27,321 nucleotides of DNA from a virus. The stretch lies in the UHGV virus genome UHGV-0288412. One strand, written 5' to 3'. Positions 7,847-19,531 of this stretch are shown one piece after another (position 1 is the first letter of the stretch; every line of letters starts with the position of its first letter). Position numbers and translations under genes: made by a program. Below the pieces are notes generated by a model. That model was not told the DNA's origin and did not search any database. It saw only the letters and a list, made by a program, of their open reading frames with translations.

Positions 7847-10273
7847 TTACATCTTACGACGCTGAACGTCTTCTATCGCCTGAGCAACAAACTTAGCGTG
7901 ACGTTTGATAGCATCCATGACCATCTTGTCTGAGCTATTAACGTTGCCGTTAATGTTCAAAGGCGCATTAACTTCAATCGGCTGAGAGTTGCCACCTGAT
8001 TTTTGAGCAGCAAGGAAGTCTTTCAAATCACCGTTAGTACGCTGATCAACTACTCGTTCACCCTTATCAAGCAACCATGTACCCTCACGCGGGATGTTAT
8101 CGATACCATCATGAGCCATACCGCTAACGTTAGTAGACTTGATGTTTGCGATGTTCCCCATGTTCTGAGAAACAGCCAATGCAGCAGCAGCGATCTTTTG
8201 TCCTGTGGTAACGTTGGTCGGATCGTTCCATGCATCGGTAGCAGCCGTCCACATGTTCACCGTCGCTTGTCCGATAGAGAATGCTTTATGAGCATTGAAA
8301 GCCATCTGCATAGCTTTAGTGTTTTCCTGCCCGAAGAGAGTCATTGCAGCAGCAAAACCGCCATACATATCATCGGCTATTGACTGTCGAGCATCAGCAT
8401 ATTTCTTCTCAATTGCAGCCATTCGTTTTTGATGGTTTTCATTGAGTTTTTCTAATGCTTCCATCCGTTTAGCCGGATCATTAATACCGTCAATCTTGAG
8501 TTTATCGGTCTTATAATCTTGTTCAGCATCCGATTTCTCTTTATCGATTGCATTAAATTTAGCAAACGGATTATTTGAGTCCTGATAGTCTAAGCTATTG
8601 GTCAACTGATTGGTTTTAAAACCATCCATTCCATGCAAAGAATCTTCAATCTGTGAATAACTTTGTTCGGTATCATTCACACGGCGCATATATTCTTCGT
8701 AGGAGATAGCCTTACCATCAAGTAACCGTTTATGGCTTTCTAACTCATTGTCCCTGATTTGTTGCAATTGTGTTAAAGCATTCAGAGCATCAACCGGATC
8801 AGCACCTAAGATCATTTTGTATACGTTTTCAGTATTCTGATCGATTAAGGATTGGCGTTTCGCGGCTGCGTCTTGCTGAGAGATTAAGCCCAGATCTAAA
8901 GCAGTATCCAAATCTTTCAAGCTGGCTTCTAACTGCTTGTTTTGAGAAGCAATAGACGCGGCGACTTGCCCTTGCAATTTAACATCAAGTGCATTCAGTC
9001 GCTTGATTGCATCCTCACGTTCTTTCTGTGCTTTTTCTGCGGCTTCCTTAGCCTTTTTAGCTGCCTCTTCCGCTTTCTTGCGCGCTTCTTCCTCGGCTTT
9101 CTTCTCGTTGCCAGACTTACCCAATGAAGCTGGTCGAGTTGGTGTAGTCGGGATAGTCAAATCACGGTTAGGATCTGCCTTGCGGGTTAGATGTTCCCCG
9201 TTATCGACAACAATCAGAGAGCCATTTTTCTTATAAGAATCACCAAAACGTTTCTTAAATCCTTCAACATCAAAGCCAGCAGTACGAGGATCGACACCAG
9301 CACCACGGATCGCGGCCTTTTCCCAATCTGCCAGATTATTCCAACGCTTTTCTTTATTGTACTTGTCAATAATCTTTTGAGCGTCTTTATGGTTGGTGTT
9401 AAGAATACCACCAGTTGCGGTCTTGCCTTCTTTATTCAGTCGATCTAATGCCCTGAATAGAGAACTCTTTTCCCAATCAATATTAAACCAGTCAAATAGC
9501 CAGTTTAAGCTATCAACCAAAGGACCAGTAATGGTCATGCCGACACCTTTCAGGTTATTTTCCAGCTTATTAATATTCTGAGAAAATTTATCATATTTTT
9601 TAGCGTTTTCTTCGGTGACGTTAACAGATTGATTCTGAATAGCGATCATCGCCTCTTGAGCACTATTATATTTCTCAAGCTGGCTGGTCATATGGCTTGA
9701 ATCACTGGATAAAGATTCCATCATGAACTTGATTTCAGCCATTGATTTTCCGGCTTTCTTCATGTCATAGAACACTTGGATCGCCGCTTTCATACCACCT
9801 TGCGGATCTGTCATGAAGTGAGCATAGTTTTCTAACTTAAGACCAACCGATTCTAAGTCATCAGCAATACCACCACCGTTAGCCCATGCATCACCCATTT
9901 TATCTAAGGTGTCTTTGTTGATATCACCAAATTTTTCAACTGTTAGGCCAGTGCCAGAAAATTCCTTTTCCAGTCTTTGAAGGGATTCAATCGAGAGTCC
10001 GGTCGCCTTAGATACTTCTGAATACTGTTTAACGTATTCCGCACCAGCTTTAGCGGCTGCAACCACTGCGGTCGCAACTAAGCCGATACCACCAGCAGCC
10101 AAACCAGCAGAGCCAGCGATCCCACGAAGAGATCCAGTCAAACCAGACAAGCCACCACCAAAATCAATACCACTTGCCTTTTCAGACAAACTATCGAGAA
10201 GGTCGGCGGCTTCACTGGTACTTCTCCTTAGACCTTTATTATCCCCTTCTATTGTTACTATATGTTTTGTCAT
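7847..10273 (-). CDS. Tail tape measure protein (808 aa)
   Basis: Long, Ala/Gly-rich N-terminus with Gly-rich hydrophobic stretch, extended charged coiled-coil segments (AEEEARKKAEEAAKKAKEAAEKAQKERE); lies immediately after the G/T chaperone pair. Confidence 0.8.
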   Translation of the reverse strand: MTKHIVTIEGDNKGLRRSTSEAADLLDSLSEKASGIDFGGGLSGLTGSLRGIAGSAGLAAGGIGLVATAVVAAAKAGAEYVKQYSEVSKATGLSIESLQRLEKEFSGTGLTVEKFGDINKDTLDKMGDAWANGGGIADDLESVGLKLENYAHFMTDPQGGMKAAIQVFYDMKKAGKSMAEIKFMMESLSSDSSHMTSQLEKYNSAQEAMIAIQNQSVNVTEENAKKYDKFSQNINKLENNLKGVGMTITGPLVDSLNWLFDWFNIDWEKSSLFRALDRLNKEGKTATGGILNTNHKDAQKIIDKYNKEKRWNNLADWEKAAIRGAGVDPRTAGFDVEGFKKRFGDSYKKNGSLIVVDNGEHLTRKADPNRDLTIPTTPTRPASLGKSGNEKKAEEEARKKAEEAAKKAKEAAEKAQKEREDAIKRLNALDVKLQGQVAASIASQNKQLEASLKDLDTALDLGLISQQDAAAKRQSLIDQNTENVYKMILGADPVDALNALTQLQQIRDNELESHKRLLDGKAISYEEYMRRVNDTEQSYSQIEDSLHGMDGFKTNQLTNSLDYQDSNNPFAKFNAIDKEKSDAEQDYKTDKLKIDGINDPAKRMEALEKLNENHQKRMAAIEKKYADARQSIADDMYGGFAAAMTLFGQENTKAMQMAFNAHKAFSIGQATVNMWTAATDAWNDPTNVTTGQKIAAAALAVSQNMGNIANIKSTNVSGMAHDGIDNIPREGTWLLDKGERVVDQRTNGDLKDFLAAQKSGGNSQPIEVNAPLNINGNVNSSDKMVMDAIKRHAKFVAQAIEDVQRRKM

Positions 10274-10276
10274 AAA

Positions 10277-10627
10277 TTACCCCGTTTGTGCGCTTCTGAG
10301 TTTCTCAAGCAAAGATGGATCGAACATGCTCAATGTTGCAGCTTTACGTTCTTCTTCTTTCTTGCGTGCAAGTTCTTCCATTTCTTCTTTAGTTTTAAAG
10401 AGTTTTTCTTCTCTAATTAACTGGAATTGGCTAGGCTTGAGTTTCTTTGCAGTTTCGCGTGTCATTCCTTGCGACGTCATATACATGGAATATTGCAACA
10501 TCGCATTCTGCATATCATGAAACGCGGGGCTTTGTGGTTCTAAGTAGGTGTCGAAAATGTATAATTTCCAAAACAGAGTGATTGGCATATTATCCATTTC
10601 ATCTTTACTAAGCCCCGATCTCATCAT
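10277..10627 (-). CDS. Tail assembly chaperone, T segment (expressed as a G-T fusion by -1 frameshift)
   Basis: ORF is in the -1 frame relative to the G-like ORF and stays open upstream to 10672, overlapping the last 5 codons of G; gene order matches lambda G/G-T/H. Confidence 0.55.
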   Translation of the reverse strand: MMRSGLSKDEMDNMPITLFWKLYIFDTYLEPQSPAFHDMQNAMLQYSMYMTSQGMTRETAKKLKPSQFQLIREEKLFKTKEEMEELARKKEEERKAATLSMFDPSLLEKLRSAQTG

Positions 10628-10656
10628 TTGCCGGAAATAGAAATTCAGAAGCGGGT

Positions 10657-10663
10657 TTACTTT
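10657..10663 (-). promoter_or_regulatory. Candidate -1 frameshift site A-AAG-UAA at the end of the G-like gene
   Basis: Minus strand reads GAG GUA AAG UAA; tRNA-Lys on AAG can re-pair on AAA in the -1 frame, and the following stop would slow the A site; the -1 frame then continues VNPLLNFYFRQMMRSG... into the T ORF. Confidence 0.45.
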
Positions 10664-10965
10664 ACCTCGTTTTCAATTACTGCCGGATCTTGCATCAATG
10701 ATGCTTGAGCAACCAAACCGATTAATTCACTGCGGACGTTAGTATACAGTGCCTTAACTTGTTCCATAGATTCAAATACTGGCTTACCGTCTTCATCTTC
10801 AATACAACGAAGAATCGAACGTTCATCACGGTCATCTTTATCGGTATTGAAAACATGTTCGTTAAATTCTTTTACTGACATAGGGCGAGCATAGAAAGTG
10901 AATCCACCGATGGTCAGAGATTCACGTTTCGGAGAAAGAGCTTTCAGCATTTCATTAATATTCAT
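10657..10965 (-). CDS. Tail assembly chaperone, gpG-like (102 aa)
   Basis: Small acidic protein immediately upstream of the T segment and tape measure gene; ends ...ENEVK-UAA. Confidence 0.55.
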   Translation of the reverse strand: MNINEMLKALSPKRESLTIGGFTFYARPMSVKEFNEHVFNTDKDDRDERSILRCIEDEDGKPVFESMEQVKALYTNVRSELIGLVAQASLMQDPAVIENEVK

Positions 10966-11007: not shown

Positions 11008-11514
11008 TTAAGAGATTTTCAAAGTCTGCTTAGTGCCAGTCTTCTTAATGTTGGTAAGGAAAGCAGCCGGAGGATTGCTTAACCAATAGTAATGAAAACC
11101 ACTTTGCATACTGTTATAAGGAACAGTGACAGCAGCACCACCCAAATTAACGGTTATATTCCCCGCTCTACCGTTCTGGAGATATACAGCCATAGTAGGA
11201 GTACCGCCATTGAATTGACCAACGATAACGCCAATCAGACGCCCTACGCCCACGTTTTCGGGGTTCTCCATAGATCCTTTACCGCGCATGTCAGTTACTG
11301 GATAGTTTGAAGCAGTTACACCCCAGTTATTACCCAATGAAGTAGACCACGCAGCAGTAGCTACAACCGTATCCATACCACGACCACACATCGCACTCAT
11401 GTTAGCTGGGCGACTAACCTTTAATGCGTTCATTGCTGCGCTCATCCATCGTTGACCAGTTACAGAAACAGCAGATGACCCGACCCAGCCAGGCTTATTA
11501 ACGACATTCGCCAT
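11008..11514 (-). CDS. Hypothetical Gly/Ala-rich protein (168 aa), probably tail-associated
   Basis: Clean ORF with GGAG Shine-Dalgarno, between the upstream terminator and the G-like gene; no motif recognised. Confidence 0.4.
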   Translation of the reverse strand: MANVVNKPGWVGSSAVSVTGQRWMSAAMNALKVSRPANMSAMCGRGMDTVVATAAWSTSLGNNWGVTASNYPVTDMRGKGSMENPENVGVGRLIGVIVGQFNGGTPTMAVYLQNGRAGNITVNLGGAAVTVPYNSMQSGFHYYWLSNPPAAFLTNIKKTGTKQTLKIS

Positions 11515-11527
11515 TTTGATTACTCCA

Positions 11528-11558
11528 ATAAAAAAGCCCCACCATTAAGGCAGGGCTT
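11528..11558 (-). terminator. Rho-independent terminator (copy A)
   Basis: Minus strand AAGCCCUGCC-UUAAU-GGUGGGGCUU followed by UUUUUU; a 10-bp stem with two G-U pairs. Near-identical to the terminator at 17364-17390. Confidence 0.7.
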
Positions 11559-11562
11559 ATAA

Positions 11563-11688
11563 TTAATCTTTAGCCTTGCGGCCTCGTTTTGCTGTGGCTT
11601 TCGCCGTAACTTCTTCTACTTCTGGAATCACCACCGCTTCATGTTCCGGCAGTGGTTCCGGTTCTGGTAAAGGAAGTTCTTCGTTAGT
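11563..11688 (-). other. In-frame 41-codon extension after the UGA stop of the 157-aa gene (candidate readthrough product)
   Basis: After UGA (11689-11691) the same frame reads TNEELPLPEPEPLPEHEAVVIPEVEEVTAKATAKRGRKAKD before UAA at 11563-11565; verified codon by codon. Confidence 0.55.
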
Positions 11689-12162
11689 TCATCCAGCGGT
11701 AAACACTTCCTGTTTCAGCGGAGCACCATCAACGGCAAAGGTAAACTCTTTAGTTACCACTTCTTCATCGCCACCGTTCATAGCAACTTTAGAAATGAAG
11801 CCGTTGTAAGCAATGCGAATACCAGTCTGTTTTCCGGCGTCAACATAATACTCTACTTTGATCTGGCAGCGAGTGCCGTCTTCGGCAGCTTTTGCGAGCT
11901 TCTCGTGTACCGCATCACCTGGGATGTAGTTAACGGTCAGAGTCAGATCTTCAACGTTCAGTTTACCAACCAGCTTACGGTTATACTGAGAAGAATACGA
12001 TTTGACTTCTACCGTACCGCGAGACAGTGAATATTCAGGAAAACCAGCACACTCTTTAATTTCTTCGTATGCTTCATCGGCAAGGTCGGTGTTAGTGGTA
12101 TCGGCGTGATAGAACAGACTTACCAGACCACCAGTAAAAATATCTTTGAATTGCTGAGACAT
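11689..12162 (-). CDS. Structural protein, possibly tail-tube-like (157 aa), ending at UGA
   Basis: Follows the fibre gene; pattern VGKLNVEDLTLTVNYIPGD...QIKVEY loosely resembles the core of the V-like protein at 15794-16627; ends VFTAG-UGA in the context GCUGGAUGAACUAAC. Confidence 0.45.
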   Translation of the reverse strand: MSQQFKDIFTGGLVSLFYHADTTNTDLADEAYEEIKECAGFPEYSLSRGTVEVKSYSSQYNRKLVGKLNVEDLTLTVNYIPGDAVHEKLAKAAEDGTRCQIKVEYYVDAGKQTGIRIAYNGFISKVAMNGGDEEVVTKEFTFAVDGAPLKQEVFTAG

Positions 12163-12219
12163 AGAATTACCCCTTAATTAAAATTGTTTATAACGGGGGA
12201 ACTAGTCCCCCGACTTTTA

Positions 12220-12561
12220 TTATTTAGTTGCTTTCAGTTCGGCAATTTCTTTCTGTAATGCTTCGATCTGTGCTTTATATTTGGCGTCCATTTCCTGCAT
12301 AGCCTTGATGATTAAAGCATTGACAGCAGAGTTAGAAATAGTCTTGATTGCTTCTGGATTTTCTGGATCATCGGTGGATTGAATACCTACTGCTTCCGGC
12401 AATACTTCTTCCAGATCCTGAGCAATAATACCTACTTCGCGTTTAATCACACTACGGTCTTTAAGAGATTTAACTTTATCGTAGGTGTAGACTTTCAGTG
12501 AGTTTACTTTCTCTAATGCGCCGTCCTGTAATTCTTCCTTGTTAATTTTCAAACGGGAGTC
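12220..12561 (-). other. Intramolecular chaperone domain of the tail fibre; predicted autocleavage at the S/D junction in RSDSRLK
   Basis: Conserved S-D-x-R-L-K-x-N motif at residues ~1052-1059, followed by a coiled-coil C-terminus (AQIEALQKEIAELK). Confidence 0.6.
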
Positions 12562-15500
12562 AGAGCGAATGTAAACATCGTTAAAGCTACCGTTACGACC
12601 TGCGGTAAAGTCACCAGCAGCGTTAAAGTCAAAGTTAGTATCATGAACATGGAGACGAACAAGAGCGTTACCGATAGTACCGCTAGGAACATGCACACCC
12701 ATTGCTGCAATGTGATATTTACCTTGATGGGTTGCTTTCCAGATGTTATGAGCGGAATCGGTTGATTGCTGGCAGTCGACCTGAATACCGGAAGCACGAT
12801 CACGCCAGCTAGCCCAACTACCACCAGCAACGCTACCACGAATAAGACCATTACCGCCACCGGATACAGTGCCCGTTTCAAGGTGAATCATCTTACCGCC
12901 GAATTTCCAGACTTCGGCTTGTTTCTCACCGCGCATACGCATAACACCAGCATCATCGCAGTACAACAGACCCAACTCTAAGCCGTTTGGATCTCTAAAC
13001 CATAAATGCTTGTTACCGCTTCGTTTAAATTCAATATCAGCACCGTTGATAGTGATATTACCGCCAGTGTGAATTGCTTTAGGCTTAACAGTACCGTTAA
13101 TGGAAAACTCGATTAATTCAGTACCCGGACCACCCGGTCGTTGTGTGTACCAGTGCCAACCGCTTTCATCAGCGCATTCGAATACTTGTTTACGAGCATC
13201 AGCACCCCATGCACGAATATTAAACGTTGATGTGGCGGTCCCCTTACCCCAACGAATTTGTCCAGCAGCTTCCAAATCACCGAAGAATTTAGTTTTAATC
13301 GCACCAGTTGCTAAAGTACGTTCAGTGGTGAAGTGTGCACCTTTGCTATCGTCAAGCTGTAGGATGTTATCACGAGCGTTATTACTATCGCCCCAATGGT
13401 TAAACCGGAAATAATCACGAGAATTTAATCGTCCAGCATCAAAGGTTAACATCCCATTACCGACATAAATGTCACCCGCAAAACGAGCAGCACGGCTATC
13501 TCTTTCGAGAACTAATGCACCTTCGTTACCATCACCACCTAACGTAACTTTACCCGTTGACAGGTCGTAAATGAATGGTCGGTTGCCGTTCCAACCACCA
13601 AATTTATCGTTTTCAGCAGTAGACAACAAATATACTTTTTGACCATCATTACGCCAGAATGCACCGTAGTTACCATAGATCATACGGAATGCGTTAGCGT
13701 ATGCAGCAACATATTCGCCGTTGGTGTATACAATTTTTGTTTTGCCAGTGGATAATGAAACCTGACCGTTCTCATCTAGACGTAATGAGTTATTACCTTC
13801 GGTTAATTCGTTTACTAGCTGCAACGTGTTAGTAGTTCCATCACCATAGCCTAGATAACCTTGACGGCGGTTAGCACCACTACGATAATCCATAAACTCC
13901 ATGTAGTTGCTTTGTCCGGTGCGTCGTTCCATTCGGATAGCATTATTGCCCTTAGTGAAAAGACGAACAACGGAAGTTCCGTTAGAGTCAATTCTTAATT
14001 TCTCGTCGGCATCAGTAGTACCCGTTGCTAGGCGATAGGTGCTACCTTCAACAGTTTCATGCCATATGGTCTCTACGGCTTGGCTACGGAATTTACGCAG
14101 ATATTTTTTAGCGCGTTCTTGTGTATTACTCAAACTTACAATATCGTAAGTTGCTTGTGAGTTATTATCAAAAGACAGAGTACCGCGTTTATTTTCAGTG
14201 TTAAACAGAGTAATAACTCGACCTTCGTTAACACCAGTAGACGGTTTAACGAGAGTTAATTCAGGCGTATCATACACATTTAAAGTCACATCAGCACTTT
14301 TACCGTACTCTACAGTTACTTTATCGGTATATTTGCGATATTTCACGTATACATCATAGTTATCGCCAGAAGTATTGACCGCAAAGGTTTCAAATTCATT
14401 ATTAGTATTTCGACGATAAGCTACAACGTTTACACCTTTCGGGTTTCCATTACCGGAACGGATAACAATTTCTACAATATCACACTGATCAGGACTATTA
14501 ACGTTATAACCATTCCCACCGAAAATACGGATGAAAAAGCCTCGACCACCTTGTGGAATTGTTGCCGTTGCCAGTTTAAAGTAACCAGCCGCATTTTCAC
14601 CAGTTGACATATGAACGGGTTTAGTGAACATCTGATCAACTTCGGCTTTACTATACACACCCAATTCAGTCGGAGTCGGCTTATCACCTTCGTGATACAT
14701 GCGGTAGCTGAATCGCTTATTACCATCTTTATCAAAGCCATAGGTTTTAACTTGAGATGAGCTAGACCCATAGTGGAACTCAAAACCGCGACCGTGTGCT
14801 TTACCGCCAGAATGAGGAATGTTAAGGATTAAGTTACCCCAACCTTCGGCATTGTTTGGACGGAATGCACCAAAATAATCAAGGTTACGAGCACCAGCAT
14901 CATCAAAATAGTTAGCTGTTTTGGTTAACAGATAGCCGTGATGGTAAGTGTTGGTATTCTTCTTGATGTAAGCAGCATCGGCACTACCTTCAATCGAATC
15001 AATTCGCTGGTTAGCTGCGGCAATTGCGGCATCAGTAGAAGATTTATTCTGGTCTACCTTGTTGTTAATTGCGGTATGGTTGCTATTAACAGTGCCAGTA
15101 AGATTGGTGATCTTCGTGTCGGCATCGCGTTTATTATTTGCTACGGTCGTTTCTATGGCTGATTTATTTGCTGCGACAGTATTCGTTAAGTTGGTAACGT
15201 TGGTATTAGTCTGATCAACTCGCGCATTAATATCTGTCTTGTTCTTGTTAATTGTCGCGTTGATAGTATCGCGGGTTGAAGTAATAGTCTGATTCAGTTC
15301 AGTCTTAGCAGCCGCCAGAGCGTTAGCCGCTTCGGTTTTATTGTTACCTACTGTGGTAGTCAAAGCATCAATTCGTTTGTTGGCTGCGTTATCTCCAGCA
15401 GTGATTGAAGCATTGAGAGTATCACGGGTAGAAGTGATAGTCTGATTCAGTTCAGCTTTAGCACTAGCCAGATTATCAGCGGCTTCTTGTTTGTTGGAAG

Positions 15501-15717
15501 CAATAACACGGTCAGTGTTGGTTTTGTTATTGTCTACTTTCGTATTCAGTTCAGCGTGTTTTTCTGGAGAAACACTAATTTGAACTACTGCGTTATTTTT
15601 ATCTTTGGTATACAGAACGTGATCAGCAAGGTTAATAGCCAATTCACCCTGTGATAATTGTTCCGGCGTTGGTTTTTTACCAGCCGTCTGTGTGCGTTTA
15701 AATTGGATTGATTGCAT
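12220..15717 (-). CDS. Long tail fibre with C-terminal intramolecular chaperone (S74-type autoproteolytic domain), 1165 aa
   Basis: N-terminus QFKRTQTAGKKPTPEQLSQGELAINLADHVLY is a recurrent fibre N-terminal motif; long N/T/A-rich coiled-coil region; C-terminal ~113 aa beginning SDSRLKINKEEL... matches the chaperone domain of T5 L-shaped fibre and endosialidases as I recall it. Confidence 0.8.
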   Translation of the reverse strand: MQSIQFKRTQTAGKKPTPEQLSQGELAINLADHVLYTKDKNNAVVQISVSPEKHAELNTKVDNNKTNTDRVIASNKQEAADNLASAKAELNQTITSTRDTLNASITAGDNAANKRIDALTTTVGNNKTEAANALAAAKTELNQTITSTRDTINATINKNKTDINARVDQTNTNVTNLTNTVAANKSAIETTVANNKRDADTKITNLTGTVNSNHTAINNKVDQNKSSTDAAIAAANQRIDSIEGSADAAYIKKNTNTYHHGYLLTKTANYFDDAGARNLDYFGAFRPNNAEGWGNLILNIPHSGGKAHGRGFEFHYGSSSSQVKTYGFDKDGNKRFSYRMYHEGDKPTPTELGVYSKAEVDQMFTKPVHMSTGENAAGYFKLATATIPQGGRGFFIRIFGGNGYNVNSPDQCDIVEIVIRSGNGNPKGVNVVAYRRNTNNEFETFAVNTSGDNYDVYVKYRKYTDKVTVEYGKSADVTLNVYDTPELTLVKPSTGVNEGRVITLFNTENKRGTLSFDNNSQATYDIVSLSNTQERAKKYLRKFRSQAVETIWHETVEGSTYRLATGTTDADEKLRIDSNGTSVVRLFTKGNNAIRMERRTGQSNYMEFMDYRSGANRRQGYLGYGDGTTNTLQLVNELTEGNNSLRLDENGQVSLSTGKTKIVYTNGEYVAAYANAFRMIYGNYGAFWRNDGQKVYLLSTAENDKFGGWNGNRPFIYDLSTGKVTLGGDGNEGALVLERDSRAARFAGDIYVGNGMLTFDAGRLNSRDYFRFNHWGDSNNARDNILQLDDSKGAHFTTERTLATGAIKTKFFGDLEAAGQIRWGKGTATSTFNIRAWGADARKQVFECADESGWHWYTQRPGGPGTELIEFSINGTVKPKAIHTGGNITINGADIEFKRSGNKHLWFRDPNGLELGLLYCDDAGVMRMRGEKQAEVWKFGGKMIHLETGTVSGGGNGLIRGSVAGGSWASWRDRASGIQVDCQQSTDSAHNIWKATHQGKYHIAAMGVHVPSGTIGNALVRLHVHDTNFDFNAAGDFTAGRNGSFNDVYIRSDSRLKINKEELQDGALEKVNSLKVYTYDKVKSLKDRSVIKREVGIIAQDLEEVLPEAVGIQSTDDPENPEAIKTISNSAVNALIIKAMQEMDAKYKAQIEALQKEIAELKATK
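15259..15472 (-). repeat. Imperfect direct repeat (~60 bp, two copies 154 bp apart) inside the fibre coiled-coil region
   Basis: gttgatagtatcgcgggttgaagtaatagtctgattcagttcag (15259-) against cattgagagtatcacgggtagaagtgatagtctgattcagttcag (15413-); encodes AELNQTITSTRDT(L/I)NA twice. Confidence 0.65.
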
Positions 15718-15748
15718 CTAGAATCACCTCACTATAAAACAGGAATAA

Positions 15749-15766
15749 GGGAGGCGTTAACCTCCC
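15749..15766 (-). promoter_or_regulatory. Intergenic hairpin between the V-like gene and the fibre gene (possible attenuator)
   Basis: GGGAGG-cgttaa-CCTCCC with a moderately U-rich 3' side on the minus strand; placed where tube-versus-fibre expression ratio could be set. Confidence 0.4.
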
Positions 15767-15793
15767 CGCGTCATGTTTTATTTAGGAAGTGAA

Positions 15794-16627
15794 TCAATAC
15801 TCCCCGAAATCGACTCTATCGGTCTTAGCTACTGCGCCAATTTCGCTAGGTGTCGGTTTCTCATTGGTGGAATATACCTTGATCCATTCAGAACGACCGT
15901 TTTCCTGAATATTTCGGACACGTAAACGCGGTGCGCCAGAAGTATTACAGGTTAATTGCCATGCGCCATGCTCATTAGCTTGAAGGTGAATTAATGATGT
16001 GTCGGTTGAATATGGATTACCGCTAGCAGTTCCCTTGTAAGTTACGAAACGGTTTCCGGCTAATGCCTCGCTATCAATCGGACCCGTGAATGGATTTACA
16101 CCAGCACCCAAACCAAAATCACCCTGACGTAAGATCCGGCCTTCGGTAGCAATACCCCTTGCCAAAATCCCGCCATCTGGTTCAAGTTTAAATTCCAGTG
16201 TTACAGCTTTGTTATCGCTACCACGGGTTTTATGTGATGTGACGTAAGCATCATAGATGACATAGTAACCAGTGTTAGCAGCACTATAGCCAGAGTTAAC
16301 AACATAGAACATACGGAAGCGTAAAGGTGTTTTATCCTCTACCGCTTTCATCAACAATGCTTGATGTTCGTCATCCAGAACACGGTTTAATGTGAGTGTT
16401 GTTGGTTCCAGTCTACGATAACCAGCAAGTTTCCCCGTAGCGTCCTGATCGTACTCTTCCAGAGTTTCAATCTCTGTGGATTCGGTTAGCGTAGGGAATG
16501 CTGCGACGTTCTCAATAGAACTAAAGCTAGGATCGAAAAAGTCCGGCTGGCTATCGACCATAGTAGACACGGAGACTTCAACATGCGACCCCGTAAAAAT
16601 ATCTAAGTTATCATGCGTAATATTCAT
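15794..16627 (-). CDS. Major tail tube protein, lambda gpV-like (277 aa)
   Basis: EEYDQDATGKLAGYRRLEPTTLTLNRVLDDEHQALLMKAVEDKTPLRFRMFYV parallels my recollection of lambda V (ESYDDS...TATGQ...FTLAW...[20 protein letters not shown]); follows the U-like gene; C-terminal extra domain ending KPTPSEIGAV. Confidence 0.6.
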   Translation of the reverse strand: MNITHDNLDIFTGSHVEVSVSTMVDSQPDFFDPSFSSIENVAAFPTLTESTEIETLEEYDQDATGKLAGYRRLEPTTLTLNRVLDDEHQALLMKAVEDKTPLRFRMFYVVNSGYSAANTGYYVIYDAYVTSHKTRGSDNKAVTLEFKLEPDGGILARGIATEGRILRQGDFGLGAGVNPFTGPIDSEALAGNRFVTYKGTASGNPYSTDTSLIHLQANEHGAWQLTCNTSGAPRLRVRNIQENGRSEWIKVYSTNEKPTPSEIGAVAKTDRVDFGEY

Positions 16628-17524: not shown

Positions 17525-19531
17525 TCATTCAGCGGAGATGTGAAGAACTTTCAGAGCTTCCGGCTGAGTAACAACATAATCCAGGTCTACCCAGATACGC
17601 GGAACAATTGCGGACTGTGCACGGTAGGTCGTGTCGTCCATATCCAATTCCAGACCGCCCCACTCACCGATAGTAATACCGGAGAAGTCACCCAGAACGA
17701 TGTGGTCTGCCGGAATAACGCCAGAAGTAACTACATCGTAACCAGCCAGTTTGCCGTTTTCGATGATATAACCGGAAACGCCGTTATCTTTCAGGGTAGA
17801 TTCCAGTTCAGCAGCAGTTGCACCGCTCATCGCAAACTTGATCGCCTGAGCAGGAACGCCAGCGTCAGTCAGTGCTGCAATTTCTTTCAGGAAGTCTTTG
17901 TAAGAGAAAGCGGCTTTCTTAGTAACGCGACCACCGTCTACCAGTTGTTTAACCAGACCAGCCGGACCGCGAGCATTTTCTTTATCAGACAGAATCAGTT
18001 GTTCCAGTTTGATGCGAACAGCTTTGTTAATGTGATCAGTGATCAGGGTAGCGATGCCCGGAACAGTTTTCAGCGACTGACGGCTGATCGGGTTGCCACC
18101 AGCAAAAGTTTTCGGAGACAGTTTCACGTTCGCAAATTCAGCTTTGCTTTCCGGTGCAGCACCGTTTTCATCAACGAAGCCGAAAGCGTCAACGCTGGAA
18201 GCGGTCATTTTTGGAATAGCGGTCGGAGCATTCAAGCCACTGTAAACAGTCACACCGAGGCGGCCTAAAACACTCTGAGGCAACAGCATTTCTACATAGG
18301 ATTCGGTCAGCAGTTTTTCGTCGGTGATAGCAGTCAGATCGGCTTTGGTGTTACCAGCAGCAGCAGCACGCATAGCAGCAGCCGGAACGAATACAGAGCC
18401 ACCGCGAGCAGCACGACCACGCTGCATAGTTGCAGTAGCAGCCATTGCGGAATATTCAGCTTCGTTAGCACCCAGAGCAGCACCATCTACCAGAGAGCGA
18501 ATTACGTTGTTCAGGTCAAAAGTTTTTTCCATGATTTGTTCCTTATTAATTTGTTCGTTATTACGTTGAGCATTGGTAATGTTATTTAGTGCCTTAGTGC
18601 GGAATGCTTCCGGCGTCATGTCTTTAATTGCCAATGCGCGTTTTAATTCTTCGTCGTCAATATTTAGTTCCCGCGCGATCTCGCGGATTTCTAATTCGTC
18701 TTCTTCGGAACGTTCAGCCACTTCCTCGGTTTTTTCTTCTTCAACCGGAACGGCTTCACGTTCTTCTTTTACTTCTTCTGTTTCCCGAACAGTTGAACTA
18801 TCATCATCAACACTTTCAGGATGTTCAGCGTCTTTTCCGTCTTCGAGATTTTCATTTTCTTTATTCTCTTCAACTTGGCGCTCTTGAGTTTCTTCAACTT
18901 CCGATTCTTTATTTTCTTCTACCGGAGTTTCTTCAACCTGAGCGGATTCTTGTTCTTCTTTGATTTCTTCAATTTGTTCTTTAGTCATATCGCGTTTAGC
19001 CTCCAAATTAACTGTGATAGTATTTAGAGAGCGATTTAAACCGACCGTATCGTCTGCGGGAACGGTGACAAATGAGAGTTCATAGGGTGCCCACTTAGTA
19101 ACAATCAATTGCCCTTTGGCGTAATCGATGTGATATTCTTTAATGTCATAGCCGACAGAAATTTTTTCCATCGTACCTTCAATGACTTTATTACGAATAT
19201 CATTAGCCATAGTCCCATGCTTGGAGAACTTAACCAGAGCACGACCTACGTTATCCGCATCGATTCGAGCGTTACAAACGACACCAATGTGATTATCGAA
19301 ATTGTGATTGAACAGCAACGGAGCGTTATTATTCAGACGAGACAGATCAACCGCTTCCGGTGTATGTACCAGAATTTCATCTAATACCACCATTTCTTGA
19401 TTTTGCTCATCCCAGAATTGGCGCTGATAAGGCTGTTCACTGGAGAAAGCAATTTCAAATTCGTATTGATCGTTATGCCCTTCGTTAATAACTCCACCGT
19501 AACCGTTAAGATCGCGGCGAAATTTAAGCAT
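17525..19531 (-). CDS. Fused prohead protease (HK97/S78-type) - scaffold-like acidic linker - major capsid protein (668 aa), ending at UGA
   Basis: N-terminus PLLFNHNFDNHIGVV...GRALVKF...ISVGYDIKEY fits the S78 prohead protease pattern (catalytic His and Ser); central Glu-rich coiled-coil (EEIKEEQESAQVEETPVEENKESEVEE...); C-terminal ~370 aa capsid-like; follows the portal gene; AGGTGA Shine-Dalgarno. Confidence 0.8.
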   Translation of the reverse strand: MLKFRRDLNGYGGVINEGHNDQYEFEIAFSSEQPYQRQFWDEQNQEMVVLDEILVHTPEAVDLSRLNNNAPLLFNHNFDNHIGVVCNARIDADNVGRALVKFSKHGTMANDIRNKVIEGTMEKISVGYDIKEYHIDYAKGQLIVTKWAPYELSFVTVPADDTVGLNRSLNTITVNLEAKRDMTKEQIEEIKEEQESAQVEETPVEENKESEVEETQERQVEENKENENLEDGKDAEHPESVDDDSSTVRETEEVKEEREAVPVEEEKTEEVAERSEEDELEIREIARELNIDDEELKRALAIKDMTPEAFRTKALNNITNAQRNNEQINKEQIMEKTFDLNNVIRSLVDGAALGANEAEYSAMAATATMQRGRAARGGSVFVPAAAMRAAAAGNTKADLTAITDEKLLTESYVEMLLPQSVLGRLGVTVYSGLNAPTAIPKMTASSVDAFGFVDENGAAPESKAEFANVKLSPKTFAGGNPISRQSLKTVPGIATLITDHINKAVRIKLEQLILSDKENARGPAGLVKQLVDGGRVTKKAAFSYKDFLKEIAALTDAGVPAQAIKFAMSGATAAELESTLKDNGVSGYIIENGKLAGYDVVTSGVIPADHIVLGDFSGITIGEWGGLELDMDDTTYRAQSAIVPRIWVDLDYVVTQPEALKVLHISAE

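What the first reader, a model, noticed from the sequence alone, without database searches (positions are those of the whole stretch)
10657..10672. G-T tail chaperone pair with a likely -1 frameshift at A-AAG adjacent to the G stop codon
The T ORF is in the -1 frame relative to G and is open from 10672, overlapping the last five G codons. The only plausible shift point is GUA-AAG-UAA, where tRNA-Lys can re-pair on AAA while the stop codon occupies the A site. This is not the canonical G-GGA-AAG heptamer known from lambda, so the mechanism would be a stop-adjacent lysine slip.
Basis: partly seen in the sequence, partly recalled or inferred. Interest (0 to 1): 0.5.

Follow-up and report, generated by a model that had tools for sequence, protein, structure and literature searches.

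The report
Tail chaperone frameshift at a lysine codon
An E. coli prophage most likely makes its two tail-assembly chaperones from one message by a backward one-base ribosome slip on a lysine codon next to the stop codon; this is an ordinary phage trick at an unusual, so far unannotated, slip site.

Summary

I tabulated 22 related G-T junction sequences, down to 32% identity. In all of them the homologous lysine is AAG preceded by A. The preceding codon varies: GUA, GCA or GAA, or UUA and AAA, which give the canonical heptamers U_UUA_AAG and A_AAA_AAG. The -1 frame is under protein-coding constraint upstream of its first ATG. That ATG has no Shine-Dalgarno sequence and is not conserved.

So a programmed -1 slip of tRNA-Lys from AAG to AAA, giving a 229-aa GT fusion, is well supported in silico. 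The adjacent stop is kept throughout the enterobacterial clade, but it lies 1 to 11 codons downstream in other relatives. It is therefore at most a helper. I found no conserved RNA structure or upstream Shine-Dalgarno-like stimulator.

Verdict: a new, unannotated member of a known kind, of modest interest.

Side note: a tail-tube paralogue carries a conserved UGA followed by a conserved in-frame extension.

The parts
10657..10965 (-). Gene G, tail assembly chaperone (102 aa plus the TAA stop at 10659..10657)
10660..10666 (-). Proposed shift site G_GUA_AAG. Lys-tRNA leaves AAG (10662..10660) and re-pairs with AAA (10663..10661).
   Evidence: Sequence. GGTAAAG is invariant in 80 close loci. A_AAG is invariant at the homologous Lys in all 22 junction sequences tabulated.
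10657..10659 (-). G stop codon UAA, immediately 3' of the shift codon; a possible 'shifty stop' helper
   Evidence: A stop follows AAG directly in 23 of 28 G protein clusters. It lies 1 to 11 codons downstream in other relatives.
10277..10660 (-). T part of the GT fusion, in the -1 frame. It is read from GUA at 10660..10658 and has 127 codons plus a stop at 10279..10277. The frame is open from 10672.
   Evidence: Translation. Weak Pfam Phage_tail_T hits. Ungapped alignment across the junction with relatives.
10628..10660 (-). T-frame segment upstream of the first ATG (VNPLLNFYFRQ). It is translatable only after a frameshift.
   Evidence: Among 9 haplotypes, 10 of 12 third codon positions vary, against 3 of 12 first and 3 of 12 second positions (counted by hand from the haplotype list). 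F109 and R112 are invariant across 13 lineages down to 32% identity.
10625..10627 (-). First ATG in the T frame; not a credible independent start
   Evidence: No Shine-Dalgarno sequence (anti-SD duplex -1.1 kcal/mol). It is ATT in L070. The first T-frame start codon lies 4 to 29 codons after the slip site in the different relatives.
10669..10675 (-). Alternative site U_GAA_AAC inside the overlap; rejected
   Evidence: Replaced by gaa-gaa-tcg in L024 and L070 while GGTAAAG is kept. E. coli tRNA-Asn supports only two-tRNA slips (review PMC5009743).
7847..10273 (-). Tape measure protein gene (808 aa), immediately downstream of T
   Evidence: PHROG 13674, E 2e-66.
11689..12162 (-). Tail tube protein paralogue (157 aa) upstream of G, separated from it by a gp38-like adhesin gene at 11008..11514
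   Evidence: PHROG 158; sub-threshold Pfam tail-tube hits PF16460, PF16461 and PF06199. PGAP calls it 'phage tail tube protein'.

Best explanation
G and T are the tail-assembly-chaperone pair of a roughly 35-kb E. coli prophage with a long non-contractile tail.

Most ribosomes translate G and terminate at UAA (10659..10657). A small fraction slip back one base at G_GUA_AAG. The single E. coli tRNA-Lys (anticodon mnm5s2UUU) pairs poorly with AAG. It leaves AAG and re-pairs with the overlapping AAA. The next codon read is then GUA, and translation continues in the -1 frame. The product is a 229-aa GT fusion (...ENEVK-VNPLLNFYFRQMM...).

The 5' codon GUA is not itself slippery, because Val-tRNA re-pairs with GGU at only one or two positions. 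The site is therefore of the NNA_AAG 'hexanucleotide' or Z_ZZN tetramer type, not a full X_XXY_YYZ heptamer.

The adjacent UAA probably gives peptidyl-tRNA-Lys a second chance to slip while the A site waits for a release factor, and so raises the yield. It is not required in the wider family.

By analogy with lambda, the G part of both proteins would coat the tape measure protein, and the rare T part would recruit the tube protein.

Shown here: the anatomy, homology, fold, conservation of the site, and coding constraint on the -1 frame. Inferred: that the slip occurs, its efficiency, the ribosomal site at which it happens, and the role of the stop.
For: 1. Anatomy. There are two overlapping ORFs in a -1 relation, downstream of a tube gene and directly upstream of the tape measure gene.
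2. G is a tail assembly chaperone by sequence and by fold.
3. Site conservation. GGTAAAG is invariant in 80 close loci while the flanks vary. All 22 tabulated junction sequences, from E. coli, Salmonella, Proteus, metagenomes and phage DCP80, have AAG preceded by A at the aligned Lys. AAG makes up only 27% of the other Lys codons in these genes. For about 8 clusters below 60% identity, chance would be roughly 0.27^8 = 3e-5.
4. DCP80 has the canonical U_UUA_AAG and L101 has the dnaX-type A_AAA_AAG at the same aligned position.
5. In several relatives the overlap is as short as in the window (-1 frame open 13-16 nt before the G stop in L027, L070, L072, L073, L106), and A_AAG is the only feature these overlaps share.
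6. The -1 frame upstream of its first ATG shows third-position-biased substitution (counted by hand) and residues invariant to 32% identity.
7. T has no conserved start codon or Shine-Dalgarno sequence.
8. Literature. A_AAG is by far the most shift-prone tetramer in E. coli (PMC4066793). NNA_AAG sites are used at B. subtilis cdd and IS1222, and efficiency rises with the wobble propensity of the tRNA reading the 5' codon (PMC5009743). Lambda needs G:GT of only about 30:1.
Against: - No protein evidence exists. Everything here is comparative.
- No conserved downstream structure. The window's 106 nt fold no better than shuffles (z +1.4), and 13 lineages give z from -1.8 to +1.2 with unrelated folds.
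- No conserved upstream Shine-Dalgarno-like element and no Rfam match.
- In reporter assays A_AAG without a stimulator was barely above background (about 0.15%). The best V_VVA_AAG heptamers gave about 0.3%. The yield here may therefore be very low unless the stop or an unseen element helps.
- GAGGU directly 5' of the site is Shine-Dalgarno-like at a spacing that from general knowledge favours +1 rather than -1 shifts. It is not conserved (TCGGT in L024 and L070).
- Several relatives have a TTG four codons after the slip site, with GAGGT 15 nt upstream. The window has CTG there.
Confidence: 0.85

Rival explanations
1. The slip happens essentially only while peptidyl-tRNA-Lys sits in the P site and UAA waits in the A site. 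This is a -1 'shifty stop'. Under this reading the stop is the stimulator, and the G:GT ratio depends on release-factor activity.
For: - A stop follows AAG directly in the whole enterobacterial clade: 80 close loci and 23 of 28 G protein clusters. It also does so in the L074 lineage.
- In L013 a 3-nt insertion still leaves a stop (UAG) adjacent.
- No other stimulator was found.
- Stops that are slow to decode are known to promote shifts of the P-site tRNA (PMC5009743).
Against: Relatives keep A_AAG with a sense codon after it. L071 and L103 differ by a single change, UAA to AAA, and extend G by 4 codons. L072, L073, L077, L078 and L099 have the stop one codon later. L101, DCP80 and L076 have it 6, 10 and 11 codons later. 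The adjacency in L013 follows automatically from duplicating GTA.
Confidence: 0.3
2. There is no recoding. T is translated on its own from ATG 10627, or by termination-reinitiation after G, and G and T act as separate proteins.
For: An ATG-ATG pair lies 30 nt after the G stop. PGAP and other pipelines annotate a separate downstream ORF.
Against: - There is no Shine-Dalgarno sequence before ATG 10627.
- The Met is not conserved: it is ATT in L070, and no start codon occurs for 27-29 codons in L072, L073 and L078.
- The 11 codons upstream of the ATG are under coding constraint and contain invariant F and R residues.
- Gene callers choose different starts in different genomes (T products of 80 to 116 aa).
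Confidence: 0.05
3. The shift occurs two codons earlier, at U_GAA_AAC, by a slip of tRNA-Asn.
For: The motif lies inside the 16-nt overlap, and A_AAC is a good A-site slip sequence in eukaryotic systems.
Against: The motif is lost in L024 and L070 (gaa-gaa-tcg) and in all distant relatives, while A_AAG is kept. E. coli tRNA-Asn supports only two-tRNA slips, and GAA to UGA re-pairing in the P site is poor.
Confidence: 0.03
4. The locus is a decaying prophage and T is a frame-disrupted relic with no function.
For: RefSeq annotates only hypothetical proteins here.
Against: The same two-frame arrangement is present in 51 complete E. coli genomes, 80 close loci, several genera and a 141-kb phage record, with purifying selection on both frames. 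The rest of the structural module is intact.
Confidence: 0.02

Closest known systems
Phage lambda G/GT tail assembly chaperones (-1 frameshift at G_GGA_AAG; Levin et al. 1993, Xu et al. 2004, as summarised in PMC5009743)
   Same: Gene order with the G-T pair directly upstream of the tape measure gene. The downstream ORF is in the -1 frame and has no start of its own. The shift is on a Lys AAG codon near the end of G. Low-level production of a fusion is expected.
   Different: The 5' codon is GUA, not the slippery GGA, so the canonical heptamer rule is not met. The G stop directly abuts the shift codon. A gp38-like adhesin gene sits between the tube gene and G. Sequence similarity to lambda T is only sub-threshold.
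HK97 tail assembly chaperone (PDB 2ob9)
   Different: 18% sequence identity.
Hexanucleotide NNA_AAG -1 frameshifting: Bacillus subtilis cdd (A_CGA_AAG) and IS1222 (G_CGA_AAG)
   Same: A single tRNA-Lys slips from AAG to AAA, with a 5' codon that cannot fully re-pair. The level is low (PMC5009743).
   Different: The 5' codon is GUA (GCA or GAA in relatives) instead of CGA. The gene is a phage structural gene. No stimulator was identified apart from the adjacent stop.
E. coli dnaX (A_AAA_AAG with an upstream Shine-Dalgarno-like element and a downstream hairpin)
   Same: The same shift-prone tRNA-Lys and AAG codon. Relative L101 carries the identical heptamer at the homologous position.
   Different: dnaX has two strong stimulators and about 50% efficiency, and it yields a shorter product. 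Here no stimulators were found and the product is longer.
'Shifty stop' recoding, for example the prfB +1 frameshift at CUU_UGA
   Same: A stop codon directly 3' of the shift codon, which would occupy the A site while the P-site tRNA re-pairs.
   Different: The direction is -1, not +1. There is no conserved Shine-Dalgarno-like stimulator, and the stop is dispensable in relatives.

Membership tests
Tail assembly chaperone G/GT pair with programmed frameshift (lambda-type) | Two overlapping ORFs lying between the major tail/tube gene and the tape measure gene | tested here: met
   Order on the minus strand: tube 12162..11689, a gp38-like insert, G 10965..10657, T to 10277, tape measure 10273..7847. 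In relatives the tube gene directly precedes G.
Tail assembly chaperone G/GT pair with programmed frameshift (lambda-type) | The upstream ORF is a tail-assembly-chaperone homologue | tested here: met
Tail assembly chaperone G/GT pair with programmed frameshift (lambda-type) | The downstream ORF is in the -1 frame, is open back into the end of G, and has no conserved start of its own | tested here: met
Tail assembly chaperone G/GT pair with programmed frameshift (lambda-type) | A canonical X_XXY_YYZ slippery heptamer in the overlap | tested here: not met
   The window has G_GUA_AAG, and only the Z_ZZN part (A_AAG) is slippery. The feature is met at the homologous position in DCP80 (U_UUA_AAG) and L101 (A_AAA_AAG).
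Tail assembly chaperone G/GT pair with programmed frameshift (lambda-type) | The shift site and two-frame coding are conserved among relatives | tested here: met
   22 of 22 junction sequences keep A_AAG. Third-position variation and invariant residues are seen in the -1 frame upstream of any start codon.
Tail assembly chaperone G/GT pair with programmed frameshift (lambda-type) | The T domain is related to lambda T (PF06223) | tested here: inconclusive
   E 4e-4, 21.1 bits against a cut-off of 25.9. 6 of 13 members hit at E <= 0.01.
Tail assembly chaperone G/GT pair with programmed frameshift (lambda-type) | A GT fusion protein is made at a low ratio to G and is needed for tail assembly | not testable with these tools
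   This needs proteomics and genetics.
NNA_AAG hexanucleotide / Z_ZZN tetramer -1 frameshift sites (cdd, IS1222 type) | An in-frame A_AAG whose 5' codon cannot fully re-pair in the -1 frame | tested here: met
   GUA_AAG. The -1 P-site codon is GGU.
NNA_AAG hexanucleotide / Z_ZZN tetramer -1 frameshift sites (cdd, IS1222 type) | The host decodes AAA and AAG with a single tRNA-Lys (UUU) | not tested
   The host is E. coli. That E. coli has a single tRNA-Lys is stated in PMC5009743. No tRNA gene was examined here.
NNA_AAG hexanucleotide / Z_ZZN tetramer -1 frameshift sites (cdd, IS1222 type) | A stimulator: a 3' structure or a 5' Shine-Dalgarno-like element at 6-17 nt | tested here: not met
   No conserved structure. 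No conserved Shine-Dalgarno-like element. No Rfam family. Pseudoknots were not searched for specifically.
'Shifty stop' recoding | A 0-frame stop immediately 3' of the shift codon | tested here: met
   AAG_UAA in the window and the enterobacterial clade. Not conserved across the wider family.
'Shifty stop' recoding | Shift efficiency depends on the stop codon and on release-factor level | not testable with these tools
   This needs reporter assays.

The most novel reading that the evidence does not exclude
In this enterobacterial prophage clade the 0-frame stop directly after the Lys codon is the main stimulator of a -1 P-site slip, a backward counterpart of the prfB mechanism. The G:GT ratio, and so tail assembly, would then be tuned by termination efficiency at UAA-A. 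Sister lineages that lost the adjacent stop would compensate with better heptamers or with ribosome queuing at a stop about 10 codons downstream.
Probability: 0.2. Interest if true: 0.5.

Novelty: new member of a known kind. Interest (0 to 1): 0.3.

Why it matters
- **Annotation.** The family is present in about 1% of complete E. coli genomes, and also in Salmonella, Shigella, Proteus and Edwardsiella. It is currently annotated as hypothetical proteins or, wrongly, as "cytochrome", with no frameshift. The GT product is therefore missing from protein databases.
- **A natural series of sites.** The family offers canonical heptamers (U_UUA_AAG, A_AAA_AAG) and minimal NNA_AAG sites at one homologous position, with the stop at 0, 1, 4, 6, 10 or 11 codons. 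This is convenient material for testing how the 5' codon and a nearby stop set -1 frameshift efficiency in E. coli.
- **Limits.** It does not change the understanding of tail assembly or of recoding.

Tried and rejected
- **DNA searches.** Megablast and blastn of the G-T region against the phage collection and the plasmid collection found nothing. tblastn found only phage DCP80.
- **Protein search with the fusion.** Searching the large protein database with the 229-aa fusion gave no hit. G alone worked.
- **Species-representative genomes.** This scan gave a single locus.
- **Downstream stimulatory structure.** The window's 106 nt fold no better than shuffles. Thirteen lineages give no common fold and z-scores from -1.8 to +1.2. 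Rejected as a conserved element, although pseudoknots were not searched for.
- **Upstream Shine-Dalgarno-like stimulator.** AAGG sits about 13 nt upstream in L024 and L071 only. GAGGU abuts the site in the window but not in L024 or L070. Rejected as not conserved.
- **Rfam.** No family matched anywhere in the window.
- **Alternative slip site U_GAA_AAC.** Rejected because it is not conserved.
- **Transcriptional slippage.** Rejected because the A run is only 3 nt.
- **Structure prediction of the fusion.** G alone was modelled instead.
- **Literature.** Licznar et al. 2003 on NNA_AAG could not be read, so I relied on its summary in PMC5009743. A search for GGUAAAG or GUA_AAG found no description of this site.
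- **Tube side finding.** The one database protein that looked like a stop-free tube-plus-extension (P0032) still has TGA in its DNA. The W there, and the failure of the call to match a table-11 translation, suggest it was called with a genetic code that reads UGA as Trp.

Full report
**What is there**

The genes of this part of the window run on the minus strand. Gene G occupies 10965..10657 (102 codons plus TAA) and ends ...GAA AAC GAG GUA AAG UAA. The frame one base back has a TGA at 10675..10673. It is then open from 10672 to a stop at 10279..10277. Its first ATG is at 10627. Four bases after that stop begins an 808-aa tape measure protein gene (10273..7847; PHROG 13674, E 2e-66). Upstream of G lie a gp38-like adhesin gene and a 157-aa tail tube gene.

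In-frame A_AAG is rare in the window's ORFs: 21 in 7824 codons. One falling in a 5-codon overlap has a chance of about 1.3%.

**Identity of G and T**

- G matches PHROG 344 'tail assembly chaperone' (E 3e-7).
- In an alignment of 13 reconstructed fusions, 11 members hit Pfam Phage_TAC_13 (best E 4.5e-7). Six hit lambda-type Phage_tail_T weakly.

**Origin of the window**

The window is an E. coli prophage. The G-T segment is found at 60-99% identity in 51 of 5426 complete E. coli genomes. RefSeq calls G, T and even the tape measure protein 'hypothetical protein' there, with no frameshift annotated. Protein databases name G homologues 'cytochrome', which is a misannotation.

**Comparative test of the shift site**

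I collected about 100 related loci from IMG/VR, metagenomes, species-representative genomes, one phage record (Escherichia phage DCP80) and contigs encoding G homologues from Salmonella, Proteus and unnamed sequencing runs.

In 80 close loci the string GGTAAAG-TAA-ACCC is invariant, apart from a single-base TAA-to-AAA change in L071 and one 3-nt insertion noted below. This holds even where the upstream codons change from AAC-GAG to GAA-TCG. That change removes both the alternative A_AAC motif and the Shine-Dalgarno-like GAGG.

I tabulated 22 junction sequences that reach down to 32% protein identity. The reconstructed fusions align without gaps across the junction, and the Lys is in one column. 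The heptamers are as follows:

| Heptamer | Number of sequences | Where |
|---|---|---|
| G_GUA_AAG | 12 | window clade |
| G_GCA_AAG | 1 | L100 |
| G_GAA_AAG | 4 | L072, L073, L074, L077 |
| A_GUA_AAG | 1 | L076 |
| A_GAA_AAG | 2 | L078, L099 |
| U_UUA_AAG | 1 | DCP80 |
| A_AAA_AAG | 1 | L101 |

The last two are textbook bacterial -1 heptamers.

The Lys codon is AAG in all 22, although AAG makes up only 27% of the other Lys codons in these genes. The preceding codon always ends in A. For roughly eight clusters below 60% identity this is about 3e-5 by chance, treating synonymous sites as independent. In several relatives the overlap is as short as in the window (-1 frame open 13-16 nt before the G stop in L027, L070, L072, L073, L106), and A_AAG is the only feature these overlaps share.

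**Is the -1 frame translated from the slip site?**

- Nine haplotypes cover the 12 codons between the slip site and the first ATG. Counting by hand from that list, ten of twelve third positions vary, against three first and three second positions. Nearly all changes are synonymous in the T frame.
- F109 and R112 of the fusion both lie upstream of Met114 (ATG 10627). Both are invariant across all 13 aligned lineages.
- ATG 10627 has no Shine-Dalgarno sequence and is ATT in L070.
- The first possible start in the T frame lies anywhere from 4 to 29 codons after the slip site in different lineages. In some it lies beyond the conserved F-x-Y-R-x-x-L-R-R-G-L motif.
- Gene callers choose inconsistent T starts, giving products of 80 to 116 aa.

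Independent translation of T is therefore very unlikely.

**Mechanism**

According to the reviews and reporter work read here:

- A_AAG is by far the most shift-prone Z_ZZN tetramer in E. coli, because the single tRNA-Lys pairs poorly with AAG (PMC4066793; PMC5009743).
- NNA_AAG sites whose 5' codon cannot re-pair are used at B. subtilis cdd (A_CGA_AAG) and IS1222 (G_CGA_AAG).
- Efficiency rises when the 5' codon is read by a tRNA with high wobble propensity.

GUA, GCA and GAA are read by modified-U34 tRNAs; this point rests on my own knowledge. In 19 of 22 sequences the first heptamer base equals the first base of the P-site codon, which allows partial P-site re-pairing. I therefore favour a tRNA-Lys AAG-to-AAA slip of the NNA_AAG kind.

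**Stimulators**

I found no stimulator.

- The 106 nt after the site fold no better than shuffles (z +1.4).
- Thirteen lineages give unrelated folds with z from -1.8 to +1.2.
- No upstream Shine-Dalgarno-like element is conserved.
- Rfam finds nothing.

Without stimulators, A_AAG tetramers were barely above background in reporters (about 0.15%). The best V_VVA_AAG heptamers gave about 0.3%, rising to about 3.7% in the best 3' context. Lambda needs about 1 GT per 30 G. The yield here is thus uncertain and may be low.

**The adjacent stop**

A stop follows AAG directly in all 80 close loci, in 23 of 28 G protein clusters from E. coli, Shigella, Salmonella and Proteus, and in the more distant L074 lineage.

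It is not obligatory, however.

- L071 (Edwardsiella-like) and L103 (Salmonella) differ by one base (UAA to AAA) and extend G by four codons.
- Five lineages have the stop one codon later.
- L101, DCP80 and L076 have it 6, 10 and 11 codons later.

I treat the stop as a probable helper, a second chance for P-site tRNA-Lys to slip, not as the mechanism. The stops 10-11 codons downstream in DCP80 and L076 lie just beyond the 8-10-codon spacing at which ribosomes queued behind a terminating ribosome showed raised -1 shifting in reporters (PMC6815119). That link is speculation.

**Verdict**

This is an ordinary G/GT tail-chaperone recoding event at a non-canonical but already known type of slip site, in a prophage family where it has not been annotated. 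It is a new member of a known kind, of modest interest.

**Seen in passing**

The 157-aa tube paralogue ends in UGA (11691..11689). It is followed in frame by 41 open codons (11688..11566, TNEELPLPEPEPLPEHEAVVIPEVEEVTAKATAKRGRKAKD). A strong hairpin-plus-T-run terminator follows directly.

- Across 23 haplotypes, TGA-ACT is invariant. The extension stays open with lengths of 36, 39, 40 or 41 codons, all length differences being whole codons.
- An Edwardsiella homologue has a contiguous C-terminal tail that aligns with part of the extension (...VIPE...).
- This looks like possible UGA read-through. From my own knowledge, UGA-A is a leaky context in E. coli. A tolerated truncation is not excluded.
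- The third-position bias in the extension is weak: 13, 7 and 16 variable sites at codon positions 1, 2 and 3.
- The indels lie in a Pro/Glu repeat.

Noticed in passing
window 11563-11691 (minus strand); terminator at 11534-11558: The 157-aa tail tube paralogue ends in UGA and is followed in frame by 41 open codons (a Pro/Glu-rich linker plus a basic tail). A strong intrinsic terminator follows directly. TGA-ACT is invariant in 23 haplotypes, and the extension stays open with whole-codon length differences (36 to 41 codons). An Edwardsiella homologue (P0045) has a contiguous tail that aligns to part of it. This may be programmed UGA read-through, or a tolerated truncation.
   Followed up: partly
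window 11008-16627 (minus strand): There are two paralogous tube proteins (277 aa at 16627..15794 and 157 aa at 12162..11689, 31% identical). A T4 gp37-like long tail fibre gene (15717..12220) lies between them. A gp38-like adhesin gene (11514..11008) is inserted between the second tube gene and G. In most relatives the tube gene directly precedes G; L102 has the gp38-like gene as in the window.
   Followed up: partly
window 10657-10965 and homologues P0001-P0027: NCBI names many G homologues 'cytochrome' in E. coli, Salmonella, Proteus and Edwardsiella, although they have the tail-assembly-chaperone fold. RefSeq also calls the 808-aa tape measure protein 'hypothetical'.
   Followed up: partly
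L013 (= L048), junction about 3300: One prophage has a 3-nt insertion at the junction (GGTAAAG-TAG-TAAACC). It adds one Val to the fusion and still leaves a stop (UAG) directly after the shift codon.
   Followed up: yes
L001 (PQ671644.1, Escherichia phage DCP80): This 141-kb phage record is filed under Straboviridae/Gaprivervirus (T4-like). Yet it carries a lambda-style tube, G-T and tape measure module with a canonical U_UUA_AAG site, all annotated as hypothetical. The taxonomy line looks doubtful.
   Followed up: no
L108 (ENA metagenome contig k141_243218), protein P0032: A database protein that seemed to be a stop-free tube-plus-extension still has TGA in its DNA. The W at that position, and the mismatch with a table-11 translation, suggest it was called with a genetic code that reads UGA as Trp.
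   Followed up: yes
window 17525-19531 (minus strand): A 668-aa protein matches major head protein families. Its N-terminal half matches a 'major head and protease' family, suggesting a fused protease/scaffold-capsid gene.
   Followed up: no
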